Assembly: GCA_965250285.1 (NCBI GenBank)
Contig: OZ252299.1
Span: 4,576,001 to 4,640,000, forward strand
Direction: 5' to 3'
From: Myxococcota bacterium
Lineage (GTDB): Bacteria; Myxococcota_A; UBA9160; UBA4427
DNA length: 64,000 nt
The notes under the pieces are model-generated. The model saw nothing but the letters and a program-made list of their open reading frames with translations. It ran no database searches and had not been told where the DNA came from. Within the stretch, counting starts at the first letter, position 1; each line of letters starts with the position of its first letter. Positions 57,908 to 60,817 of the stretch are shown piece after piece. The translations under genes and the position numbers were made by a program.

Positions 57908-58633
57908 TCAGTCGAGCGACCAGCTGCCGCAGCGTGTCGGGTGCGCCAGCGCGTCGGCGAGCGCGTCGAGGTACGACGTGCGCGGCCACTCGGTCGCGCC
58001 GAAACGCTCGAGATGGTCGGTGTGCACCTGACTGTCGACGAAGTCGAAGCCCCATGCTTCGAGTCGCTGCACCAGATGGACGAACGCGACCTTCGAGGCG
58101 TCGGGTACCCGCGTGAACATCGATTCGCCAAAGAAGACGTGCCCGAGCGAGACCCCGTACGCGCCGCCCACCAGCTCGCCGTCCCGCCAGCTCTCGACGC
58201 TGTGCGCGAAGCCGAGCTGGTGAAGCGCGCAGTACGCCTCGAGCATCGCCGGGGTGATCCAGGTGCCCGACTGCCCCGGGCGCGCGCTGTCGCGGCAGCC
58301 GATCATCACGGCTTCGAACGCGGTGTCGTAGCGCACGTCGAAGCGCCCACTGCGGATCTTCTTGCCGAGGCTGCGCGAAACCCGAAGCTCATCGAGTCGC
58401 AGCACGAAGCGTGGGTCGGGCGAGAACCAGAGGATCGGATCCTCGTCGTACCACGGGAAGATGCCCTGACAGTACGCAGAGATCAGTCGCTCGGGTCGGA
58501 GATCGGCGCCGAACCCGAGCAGGCCATGCGCATCGGCGGCGCGCGGGTCGGGGAAGGGATAGGCGTCGACGAGAGGGCGGAGCGCATCGGCGGGGACCAG
58601 GCGAAGCGACCGCTCGGGCGGCGCGCCGCTCAT
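57908..58633 (-). CDS. aat: Leucyl/phenylalanyl-tRNA-protein transferase
   Basis: GIFPW, WFSPDPR, AHSVE, FFGESMF, DASKVA. Confidence 0.95.
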   Translation of the reverse strand: MSGAPPERSLRLVPADALRPLVDAYPFPDPRAADAHGLLGFGADLRPERLISAYCQGIFPWYDEDPILWFSPDPRFVLRLDELRVSRSLGKKIRSGRFDVRYDTAFEAVMIGCRDSARPGQSGTWITPAMLEAYCALHQLGFAHSVESWRDGELVGGAYGVSLGHVFFGESMFTRVPDASKVAFVHLVQRLEAWGFDFVDSQVHTDHLERFGATEWPRTSYLDALADALAHPTRCGSWSLD

Positions 58634-58682
58634 CGGAGGCCTCCGGGCCAGGGGCCCACCGGGATGCCGCGCGATCGCGGGT

Positions 58683-59279
58683 TCACGGGCTCGCAAAGCT
58701 CCGCGCATCGGCCGGCCAGGGCGTGGCCGAGTCGAGCGCAGGGATCACGTCGGCGACCTCGTCGACCACCGACCACATGTCGAGATGGCGCTCGCCCATG
58801 AAGCGCTCGCTCACGCTGCGCTCGAGCAGCTCGATGCATGGATCGAAGAAGCCCTTCTGGTTCAGGAAGACGAGCGGACCGAGGAACAGGCCGAGGCGCT
58901 TGGCCGTAATTACTTCGAAGACCTCTTCGAGCGTGCCGCAGCCCCCCGGCAGCGCGACGACCCCATCGGACGCCGCTGTCATGCGTCGCTTGCGCTCCTG
59001 CATGTCGACCACCGTCTCGAGGCGCGTGAGCCCCGAGTGCGCCCACTCGAGCTCCTCCATGAAATTCGGGAGGATCCCGATCACGTCGCCGCGCTCGGCG
59101 AGGGCTGCATCGGCGAGCGCGCCCATCGAGCCGAGCGCGCCGCCGCCGTAGACGAGCGTGCGGCCCGCTCGCGCGATCATGCGGCCGAGCTCGGCGGCCG
59201 CCTCGCGGTAGACCGGATCGGCCGCCGTGCTGGACGCACAGAAGACGAGGATGCTCTCGATGGGCCCTTGCTCGCGCAT
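58683..59279 (-). CDS. LOG-family nucleotide phosphoribohydrolase (TIGR00730)
   Basis: LVYGGG, MQERK, PGGCGTLEE. Confidence 0.92.
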   Translation of the reverse strand: MREQGPIESILVFCASSTAADPVYREAAAELGRMIARAGRTLVYGGGALGSMGALADAALAERGDVIGILPNFMEELEWAHSGLTRLETVVDMQERKRRMTAASDGVVALPGGCGTLEEVFEVITAKRLGLFLGPLVFLNQKGFFDPCIELLERSVSERFMGERHLDMWSVVDEVADVIPALDSATPWPADARSFASP

Positions 59280-59355
59280 CGGGCGAATCTAGCAGCACCG
59301 CGGGGGCGATCGGCGACCGGCGCGGCGGCCTGCTAACGTCGGCCGCCGACAGACA

Positions 59356-59481
59356 AGGGTGATTTCAGGCGCTTGCAGGCCCACGGGCCCCGTCCCGATC
59401 GGGACGGCCCCCGATTCGGGGATTCGGTGATGTCGTTCGCGACACCCGCCGAGACGGCTCGGAAGACGTGCTAAGTGCCCC
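59356..59481 (+). ncRNA. SAM-II-like riboswitch with a long inserted loop
   Basis: GGG-UGAUUU...GGCGCUUGC-AG-GCCC core; downstream GCUAAGUGCC pairs with GGCGCUUGC (bulged U) to form the pseudoknot; upstream of a Met-biosynthesis gene; TGcTAACGT extended -10 at 59331-59339. Confidence 0.7.
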
Positions 59482-59629
59482 CACAGCCAGATCGCTGCTC
59501 TGGCGCGGCCGAGACCGCGCGATGGCGAATCAGTGGCCGCGACCCCTCCCCTCTTTCATGTGAGGTGGGCGGATCGCGCAGGGAGTGCAGGCCGGGCAGC
59601 GCCCGACCCCTCCGAATCGAGAAGAAGAG

Positions 59630-60817
59630 ATGGAAGACGGCCCCCGCGAGCGTGGCGCCGCGACTCGATCCGTTCATGCGGGCGAGCTGCGGCAGCAGGA
59701 AGCCAACGCGATCACCACACCGATCTACCAGACGTCGACGTTCTGGTTCGAGACGAGTCAGGAGGTGATCGACTACCAGGAAGGCAAGACGAAGCGCGAA
59801 GAGTACGGGCGCTACGGCAACCCGACCTGGCGGGCCGTCGAGCGCAAGCTCTCCGAGCTCGAAGGCGGTGAAGAGAGCGTGCTCTTCGCCTCGGGCATGT
59901 GTGCGGCGACAACGACGTTCCTCGCCCTGCTGCCGCCGGACAGCCACCTGATCGTGACGAGCGACTGCTACCGACGCACGCGCCAGTTCATCAACGAGTA
60001 TCTCGTTCGGATGGGCGTCGAGTGCACCGTCATCGAGCCGTGCAACCTCGAAGCGTTCGAGGCCGCGATCCGACCCGAAACGCGGCTGTTCTTCACCGAG
60101 TCGCCGACCAACCCGTACCTGCGTGTCATCGAGATCGAGCGGTGCGCCGAGATCGCGCACGCGAAGGGCGTGAAGGTCATCATCGACTCGACGTTCGCGA
60201 CGCCGTCGAATCAGCGGGCGCTCGACTTCGGCGCAGATCTCGTCGTGCACAGCGCGACGAAGTACCTCGGCGGCCACAACGACCTGCTCGCCGGCACGGT
60301 CACGGGCGACGCCGAGACGGTCGAACCGATCCGCAAGGCGCTCGGCGTGCTCGGCGGCATCATCGACAGCCACTGCGCGTGGCTGCTGTTGCGCGGCATC
60401 AAGACGCTCGACGTGCGCATGGATCGCCACAACGCAAACGGCCTCGCCATGGCGCGGTTCCTCGAATCGCACCCGAAGGTGCGGCAGGTCTGGTACCCGG
60501 GGCTCGAGAGCCATCCCGACCATGCCGTCGCGAAGCGTGAGATGAAGGCCTTCGGCGGCGTCGTCACGTTCGAGATCGACACCGACCTCGACGGCGCGAT
60601 CCGCTTCATCGACGCCACGCGGGTGCCCTACCAGGCGCCGTCACTCGGCGGCGTCGAGACGCTGATCGAGCTGCCCGTGACGATGTCGTACTGGGACTAC
60701 GACCCGAAGGACCGAGCCGAGTGGGGCATCACCGATTCGCTGTGCCGACTCGCCTGCGGCATCGAGAACAGCGAAGACCTGATCGCGGACATGGAGCAGG
60801 CGCTCGAGAAGGTGTGA
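59630..60817 (+). CDS. metB: Cystathionine gamma-synthase (PLP trans-sulfuration family, plant-type)
   Basis: EYGRYGNPT, ASGMCA, TESPTNP, HSATKYLGGHND, APSLGG...MSYWD. Confidence 0.85.
   Translation: MEDGPRERGAATRSVHAGELRQQEANAITTPIYQTSTFWFETSQEVIDYQEGKTKREEYGRYGNPTWRAVERKLSELEGGEESVLFASGMCAATTTFLALLPPDSHLIVTSDCYRRTRQFINEYLVRMGVECTVIEPCNLEAFEAAIRPETRLFFTESPTNPYLRVIEIERCAEIAHAKGVKVIIDSTFATPSNQRALDFGADLVVHSATKYLGGHNDLLAGTVTGDAETVEPIRKALGVLGGIIDSHCAWLLLRGIKTLDVRMDRHNANGLAMARFLESHPKVRQVWYPGLESHPDHAVAKREMKAFGGVVTFEIDTDLDGAIRFIDATRVPYQAPSLGGVETLIELPVTMSYWDYDPKDRAEWGITDSLCRLACGIENSEDLIADMEQALEKV

What the first reader, a model, noticed from the sequence alone, without database searches (positions are those of the whole stretch)
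59356..59481. SAM-II-like riboswitch with an ~87-nt multi-hairpin insertion
Seen: P1 GGGU/GCCC enclosing GAUUU and GGCGCUUGC. The partner GCUAAGUGCC (59470-59479) gives nine pairs plus the bulged U typical of the SAM-II pseudoknot. The linker, normally short and A-rich, is 59383-59469 here and folds into hairpins (CGUCCCG/CGGGACG, UGUCG-UUCG-CGACA, GCCG/CGGC). It lies upstream of a Met-pathway gene. Unusual points: insertion length, a probable Myxococcota-like host (SAM-II is best known from Alphaproteobacteria), and a start codon about 150 nt downstream, so simple SD sequestration cannot be the mechanism. P1 is short (4 bp), which is a caveat.
Basis: partly seen in the sequence, partly recalled or inferred. 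Interest (0 to 1): 0.7.

Follow-up and report, generated by a model that had tools for sequence, protein, structure and literature searches.

The report
SAM-II riboswitch with rebuilt pocket
A knotted RNA at the start of a methionine-synthesis mRNA is conserved across a whole order of bacteria known here from environmental genomes and likely senses the methyl donor SAM; its long insertion is ordinary, but one base that grips SAM in the solved relatives is replaced in every copy examined.

Summary
The element is real. It is the genome's only SAM-II-like pseudoknot and lies before a plant-type cystathionine gamma-synthase gene. 52 of 54 orthologous leaders in the order carry it, with compensatory changes, and no Rfam model detects it. 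The flagged insertion is not the novelty: the linker runs from 18 to 200 nt across 89 homologues, and hairpins at this site are published for SAM-V, SAM-II long loops and betaproteobacterial metXZ RNAs. Three features are not in the papers I read. A47, which binds SAM's amino-acid end, is G in 52 of 52, with C13 and C19 (U in two). L3 is C-rich. Most relatives carry an extra covarying helix (P0), which this genus has lost. Compact G47 versions precede metF and metK in other bacteria, so SAM is still the likely ligand. Outside this family the pseudoknot ends 17-28 nt before the AUG (likely translational OFF). Here the gap is 150 nt with no terminator, and the output step is inferred, not shown. 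This scan reported other Rfam-missed SAM-II/V variants in other genomes, but not this family. Verdict: new variant of a known kind.

The parts
59334..59339 (+). likely -10 promoter element (TAACGT), 21 nt before the aptamer core
   Evidence: A (C/G)TAnnnT hexamer lies 18-36 nt before G8 in 78 of 88 homologues, against 2 of 85 in a control window. The generic promoter scan found nothing here.
59357..59360 (+). P1 5' strand GGGU
   Evidence: Pair 7-26 changes on both sides in 12 of 55 aligned relatives; the P1 helix is 95% paired.
59361..59367 (+). L1 third strand G8-A9-U10-U11-U12-C13-N14 (metX SAM-II numbering)
   Evidence: C13 is present in 52 of 52 gene-selected leaders where the position was left free.
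59368..59377 (+). P2 5' strand G15-A24; C19 = 59372
   Evidence: P2 is 99% paired and 4 of its 10 pairs change on both sides.
59379..59382 (+). P1 3' strand GCCC
59384..59461 (+). variable L3 insertion, predicted four-way junction: closing stem 59384-59389/59456-59461 and hairpins 59390-59407, 59409-59421, 59424-59452
   Evidence: Folding z-score -2.9; the sister species keeps the closing stem with two different hairpins, z -4.2. No long second copy in the genome.
59462..59468 (+). single-stranded GAAGACG, predicted to cross the P1 minor groove
   Evidence: Unpaired in the constrained fold with the 5' leader blocked; analogous to SAM-V A40-A42 after P3.
59469..59479 (+). P2 3' strand U41-C51; bulged U44 = 59472; G47 = 59475 in place of the canonical A47
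   Evidence: G47 is present in 52 of 52 gene-selected leaders.
59480..59629 (+). 150-nt spacer without intrinsic terminator, ending in a purine-rich SD (59619-59629)
   Evidence: it folds no better than shuffles, z +0.2.
59630..60817 (+). cystathionine gamma-synthase-like PLP enzyme, 395 aa, plant-type by best structure hit
   Evidence: The best PDB hit is 1i41/1qgn cystathionine gamma-synthase, E 8e-132; the next is methionine gamma-lyase at 2e-97. No NCBIfam model reaches its cut-off.

Best explanation
This is a conserved H-type pseudoknot of the SAM-II/SAM-V kind that likely binds SAM and likely turns down the cystathionine gamma-synthase gene at ribosome loading, since no terminator follows it. 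Shown: the two helices, the invariant adenine- and sulfonium-site bases (U10, U11, U12, U20, U21, G22, U44, A45, A46), and the gene link. Inferred: A47 has become G, which would pair with C19 and take C13 as third strand, so SAM's amino-acid end must be held in a new way or more weakly. Inferred: in the likely ancestral layout the knot ends 17-28 nt before the AUG, and docking on SAM would block 30S loading. Inferred: in this family the gap has grown to as much as 180 nt, and control would act at a distance, with decay or Rho acting on the untranslated mRNA. The 87-nt insertion is predicted to be a closed, replaceable domain. Its closing stem uses the strand that most relatives pair with the 5' end (P0), and it leaves about 8 unpaired bases to span P1.
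For: The core is present in 52 of 54 orthologous leaders with enough DNA. Covariation exceeds all 500 shuffles on five measures and all slid controls. In a scan of all GTDB genomes with the 5' half only, 58 of 120 returned stretches had the partner strand; 50 of those 58 precede this gene (the other 8 have 37-238 nt of flank), against 0 of 62 without the partner. Compact C13/C19/G47 versions precede metF (8 loci, 2 distinct RNAs) and metK (1 locus) in AT-rich contigs. An orthologous gene in the same class has a SAM-I riboswitch instead. Spacers are 17-28 nt in 14 of 14 measured leaders outside the family and 16-180 nt inside. There is no U run in 31 of 35 long spacers. S. meliloti metA shows SAM-II control of a start codon 74 nt away (PMC9373788; abstract and discussion). 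One contig of an RNA library covers 59429-59623 with 3 differences.
Against: No binding or expression data exist. A50-to-inosine in SAM-V, the equivalent base, caused severe loss of SAM binding (PMC6061858), although inosine lacks G's 2-amino group. Folding predicts no change in ribosome-site access between knot-formed and knot-free states (unpaired 0.67 vs 0.69 here; 0.53 vs 0.50 in 42 short-spacer and 0.51 vs 0.48 in 35 long-spacer members). The long spacers do not loop out better than shuffles (median z -0.9). P2 is a strong duplex (median -13.2 kcal/mol) and may form without ligand. L3 is A-poor: at most one A in the last 8 nt in 67 of 89. One leader of the family has lost the element (L011).
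Confidence: 0.6

Rival explanations
1. SAM is bound as proposed, but the output is Rho-dependent termination or a change in mRNA stability, not ribosome blocking. The P0/b/c/d strand exchange of the relatives would expose or hide the 5' end or a C-rich strand.
For: The spacer is long and has no terminator. In relatives the strand after P1 can pair either with the 5' end or with a look-alike strand in L3. SAM-II RNAs change mRNA half-life in S. meliloti.
Against: Short, tightly clustered knot-to-AUG distances outside the family, and an SD directly behind the knot in the metK copy, point to translation. The P0 fold is favoured by a median 6.5 kcal/mol, so the exchange is not balanced.
Confidence: 0.15
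2. The G47/C19/C13 change shifts or relaxes specificity, so the RNA senses an adenosyl-sulfonium compound without reading the amino-acid end (for example decarboxylated SAM as well as, or better than, SAM).
For: A47 binds the amino and carboxyl groups and was reported as completely conserved (PMC3764141). It is A in every row I saw of the SAM-II long-loop, SAM-V and metXZ alignments. Here it is never A, and position 19 is always a G partner (C 87, U 2 of 89). A SAM-aptamer variant with a changed ligand exists (PMC10853860, search listing only).
Against: All identified downstream genes (CGS, metF, metK) are ordinary SAM-riboswitch targets; none is a polyamine or salvage gene.
Confidence: 0.13
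3. In this family the knot forms without ligand and only protects the leader or yields a stable leader RNA; regulation by SAM has been lost as the spacer grew.
For: The P2 duplex is strong, no RBS coupling is predicted, and one family member lacks the element.
Against: Bases that matter only for ligand contact (bulged U44, U10-U12) stay invariant in long-spacer members while stems covary.
Confidence: 0.09
4. The element is a chance match or a repeated palindromic element in GC-rich DNA.
For: The whole 161-nt region folds only modestly better than shuffles (z -1.7), and no Rfam family matches.
Against: It occurs once in the genome, is conserved order-wide before one gene, and covaries.
Confidence: 0.01

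Closest known systems
SAM-II riboswitch (Rfam RF00521 SAM_alpha; metX structure 2QWY; PMC1273637)
   Same: Same topology and the same register from G8 to C51; invariant G8, U10-U12, U20-C23 and G42-A46; promoter just upstream; methionine-pathway gene downstream.
   Different: A47 is G with C19 and C13; P1 is 4-5 bp; L3 is C-rich with inserted helices; most relatives have an extra P0; no terminator; not detected by the model even with an 18-nt linker.
SAM-V riboswitch (RF01826; PDB 6FZ0; PMC6061858, PMC2704228)
   Same: 4-bp P1, a helix directly after P1 (P3), an extra pair at the base of P2, and likely translational control.
   Different: SAM-V keeps A50 opposite A18, has an A-rich strand and a 3-bp P3, and its SD overlaps the knot; here the SD lies 15-150 nt away and the core reads UUGCAG/GCUAA as in SAM-II.
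SAM-II long loops (RF01726; Weinberg 2010, PMC2864571 supplement 5)
   Same: Optional inserts at the same site after P1 (about 30-47 nt in the rows I saw; about 73 columns reserved) and a short lower P1 stem.
   Different: Bacteroidetes and marine, AU-rich; A47 and G13 in the rows seen; A-rich L3; no P0.
Betaproteobacterial metXZ element (Leyn 2014, PMC4239095; called canonical SAM-II in PMC5473149)
   Same: GC-rich SAM-II core with variable hairpins inserted after P1 in 14 of 34 rows.
   Different: All 34 rows have GCUAAA and G13 and an A-rich L3; they are followed by predicted terminators.
Sinorhizobium meliloti metA SAM-II (PMC9373788)
   Same: Controls a start codon well downstream of the aptamer.
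   Different: There the SD lies inside the riboswitch and a terminator sits between; neither holds here.

Membership tests
SAM-II (RF00521) | H-type pseudoknot P1/P2 with covariation | tested here: met
   P1 95% and P2 99% paired, with changes on both sides in each
SAM-II (RF00521) | U10, U11, U12, U20, U21, G22, C23, G42, C43, U44, A45, A46 conserved | tested here: met
   Present in 52 of 54 gene-selected leaders; these letters were the search anchors.
SAM-II (RF00521) | A47 binding the amino and carboxyl groups of SAM | tested here: not met
   G in 52 of 52 with the position left free; role of A47.
SAM-II (RF00521) | A-rich L3 making A-minor contacts with P1 | tested here: not met
   At most one A in the last 8 nt in 67 of 89. 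This window's copy has three (GAAGACG), so it comes closest.
SAM-II (RF00521) | Scores with the Rfam model | tested here: not met
   No hit at E up to 10 here or in an 18-nt-linker homologue; none at gathering in 20 loci. The genome-wide search had no positive control.
SAM-II (RF00521) | Upstream of methionine or SAM genes | tested here: met
   CGS-like gene, metF, metK
SAM-II (RF00521) | Binds SAM and rejects SAH | not testable with these tools
   needs probing or ITC
SAM-V (RF01826) | 4-bp P1 followed by a P3 helix | tested here: met
SAM-V (RF01826) | A50:A18 pair | tested here: not met
   C-G in 87 and U-G in 2 of 89
SAM-V (RF01826) | SD overlapping the 3' end of the pseudoknot | tested here: not met
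   Spacer 15-188 nt in 65 measured members; close only in the unrelated metK copy L306.
SAM-II long loops (RF01726) | Optional insert after P1 | tested here: met
   18-200 nt
SAM-II long loops (RF01726) | Scores with the Rfam model; A47 and A-rich L3 | tested here: not met

The most novel reading that the evidence does not exclude
A separate subtype of the SAM-II superfamily, found in at least two unrelated lineages, has rebuilt the amino-acid subsite as a C13-G47-C19 base triple. It therefore reads SAM differently or accepts another adenosyl-sulfonium ligand, and in most of this order it offsets its stronger P2 with a P0 strand-exchange switch in place of the A-rich loop.
Probability: 0.25. 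Interest if true: 0.75.

Novelty: new variant of a known kind. Interest (0 to 1): 0.5.

Why it matters
It offers a natural test of a base that structures and atomic mutagenesis treat as essential for SAM binding in SAM-II/V RNAs. Either G can replace A47 through a new contact, or ligand specificity has shifted. It also extends this riboswitch kind to an order of environmental bacteria that Rfam misses, shows a plant-type cystathionine gamma-synthase gene under likely RNA-level SAM control, and supplies a natural series (linker 18-200 nt, spacer 15-188 nt) for studying control at a distance.

Tried and rejected
Rfam scans found no SAM family at the site, in relatives or in the compact variants. 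RF00162 and RF00521 found nothing in the own genome (the second had no ringing control). Intrinsic terminator: none on the + strand; U runs in 4 of 35 long spacers. Upstream ORF control: a 13-codon ORF starts at 59522, but an SD plus start within 30 nt of the knot occurs in only 5 of 35 long spacers. Looping-out of the spacer: no better than shuffles. Predicted SD switching: none. Insertion as mobile repeat: only short matches, E 0.008 or worse, elsewhere in the genome. The metK leader of this genome shows no such element. Viral contigs: 5 matches, none with more than 2 of 4 partner pairs. RNA data: only one RNA run, held as contigs. It covers the leader's 3' part and no other long piece of 20 kb, which says nothing about termination or expression level. 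The Corbino supplement PDF held no searchable alignment and its Stockholm files could not be read, so rare G47 rows in RF00521 are not excluded. Part 37 of the long-loop alignment was not read. One supplement search hit the wrong file. No protein folding or complex jobs were needed.

Full report
Observation. A descriptor for a SAM-II-type knot matches once in the 6.25 Mb genome and never in reversed or complemented controls. Rfam finds no SAM family here at E up to 10. The downstream 395-aa protein is a trans-sulfuration PLP enzyme. No NCBIfam model reaches its cut-off, but the best solved relative by 34 orders of magnitude is the cystathionine gamma-synthase of 1i41/1qgn, which I recall as the tobacco enzyme.

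Conservation. I collected leaders by the gene, not by the RNA: 30 loci and 28 more. Four were cut at contig ends (L007, L027, L177, L178). Of the other 54, 52 carry the element; L011 and L030 do not. A scan of GTDB genomes with the 5' half alone stopped at 120 rows. Of these, 58 have the partner strand, and 50 of the 58 are followed by this gene; the other 8 have too little flank. None of the 62 without the partner is followed by it. Of the 40 partner-bearing rows that showed a title, 22 read Myxococcota, Myxococcales or Myxococcaceae and 10 Deltaproteobacteria; 4 read Spirochaetales or Spirochaetaceae, one of them identical to a genome of this family, and 4 other. A covariance model built from 55 relatives hit 21 of 24 genomes of the order among 150 genomes of the phylum; outside the order there were two weak hits without the partner strand. 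Twenty orthologous leaders from outside the order lack the element; one has a SAM-I riboswitch at 69 bits.

Structure. On alignment A1 (55 of the 89 distinct members, all with linkers up to 60 nt; the window's own copy is not included) the named structure is 89.5% paired and exceeds all 500 shuffles and all slid controls; relatedness inflates such tests. P2 is 99% paired with double changes at four pairs, including A24-U41 to G24-C41. P1 is 4-5 bp with a covarying 7-26 pair. A third helix, P0, joins the 5' end (GGGUUCGA) to the strand after P1 (UCGGACCC): it is 81% paired, with 5 of 8 pairs changed on both sides. It forms with at least 5 pairs in 53 of 89 constrained folds. The 5' strand lies behind a conserved -10 element (78 of 88 against 2 of 85), so it should be transcribed. 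In many members a look-alike strand in L3 offers an alternative partner. This genome and its sister species lack the 5' strand, have a shorter leader, and use the strand after P1 to close the insertion.

The insertion. The linker from A24 to G42 is 92 nt here; across 89 distinct homologues it is 18-200 nt, median 45, with 7 at least as long. Here it is predicted as a closed four-way junction (z -2.9); the sister species keeps the closing stem and has different hairpins. Inserts at this position are published: P3 of SAM-V (PMC6061858, parts 2-3 of the text read), SAM-II long loops (PMC2864571, passages and supplement 5 parts 36 and 38-40) and the metXZ elements (PMC4239095, passages, section 10 and part 1 of supplement 2), which PMC5473149 calls canonical SAM-II (passage). 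So the insertion is long but ordinary in kind.

The pocket. The element aligns with the metX SAM-II numbering without gaps (numbering from passages of PMC3303485 and PMC3764141). The adenine and sulfonium sites are intact. A47, which binds SAM's amino and carboxyl groups and was reported as completely conserved, is G in 52 of 52 gene-selected leaders. C13 is present in 52, and position 19 is C in 50 and U in 2. In SAM-V the equivalent A50-to-inosine change severely reduced binding. Every row that I saw of three published alignments has A there: about 107 of 162 long-loop rows, the SAM-V rows shown by a search, and 34 of 34 metXZ rows. By triplex rules (established knowledge, not tested) C13 could dock on a C19-G47 pair. 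Alternatively G47 could hold the carboxylate through N1 and N2, which inosine cannot fully mimic.

The ligand. A metagenome scan that fixed C13, C19 and G47 and excluded this order's G15 returned 110 stretches. Ten had all four outer P2 pairs, against 2.8 after shuffling, though seven of the ten are one sequence. Eight lie before metF and one before metK, behind TATAAT promoters in AT-rich contigs; the tenth lacks P1. The metF proteins fall in clusters labelled Gamma- or Alphaproteobacteria. Rfam misses these too. Because the pattern forced the three bases, this shows that the combination exists elsewhere, not that it is obligatory there. CGS, metF and metK together point to SAM.

Output. SAM-II often uses a terminator (PMC1273637, passages); none is present here. 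Outside the window's family the knot ends 17-28 nt before the AUG in 14 of 14 measured leaders; inside it the distance is 16-180 nt in 27. I infer that the short layout is ancestral and translational, the knot lying at the upstream edge of the 30S footprint (recalled). For the 150-nt spacer I found no coupling: no predicted change in SD access, no favoured looping-out and no conserved upstream ORF. Control at a distance has one precedent (PMC9373788, abstract and discussion), but there the SD lies in the riboswitch. This step is the weakest part of the model. One RNA-library contig of a close relative covers 59429-59623; contigs cannot show strand, ends or level.

Novelty. Eight literature searches showed no report of a G47 SAM-II or of this lineage's element. 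Subscription papers and unread alignments may hold one. Earlier notes of this scan describe other Rfam-missed SAM-II/V variants, some changed at one ligand contact, in other genomes; none matched this sequence or place. I did not test them. It works like a SAM-II/V riboswitch but fails the A47, A-rich-loop and model tests, so I file it as a new variant, not as a member. Interest 0.5.

Noticed in passing
L011 (G022:C24), about 1360-1430: In this family member the riboswitch is missing and three tandem copies of a ~21-nt unit (GTGCCCACAGCCATCTGACAC-like) stand between promoter and gene; the unit resembles the 3' end of the knot and the bases after it.
   Followed up: partly
L187:356-476: An orthologous CGS gene in the same class has a SAM-I riboswitch (RF00162, 69 bits), while eight others of that family (L179-L186) appear leaderless, with the start codon just behind a TTGAC/TAnnnT promoter.
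   Followed up: partly
L190 and L191, about 100-200 nt before the gene: Two genomes of another family share a conserved, apparently structured leader before the same gene with no Rfam match at gathering score.
   Followed up: no
L249, L250, L218, L229, L234, L293, L303, L307 (metF) and L306 (metK): Compact 45-nt SAM-II-like RNAs with C13/C19/G47 in AT-rich contigs, missed by Rfam; good constructs for crystallography.
   Followed up: partly
L199 (minus strand, about 20-115): A C13/C19/G47 core with a longer P1 followed directly by an intrinsic terminator; the downstream gene is cut off by the contig end.
   Followed up: partly
L332 (G007:C105:12820-12926): A second copy of the element in one genome, at a contig end; could be contamination (6% or less in this group) or a duplicate.
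   Followed up: no
window 59522-59563: A 13-codon ORF preceded by CGAGA lies in the spacer, in frame with the gene but closed by a stop; not conserved in the sister species.
   Followed up: partly
window 58683-59279 and 57908-58708 (minus strand): A LOG-like Rossmann-fold gene (TIGR00730) and leucyl/phenylalanyl-tRNA-protein transferase are transcribed away from the riboswitch.
   Followed up: no
L113, about 100-300: The 200-nt linker of this homologue contains tandem 12-nt repeats (GTGCCGGTCAGA), suggesting that linkers grow by slippage.
   Followed up: no
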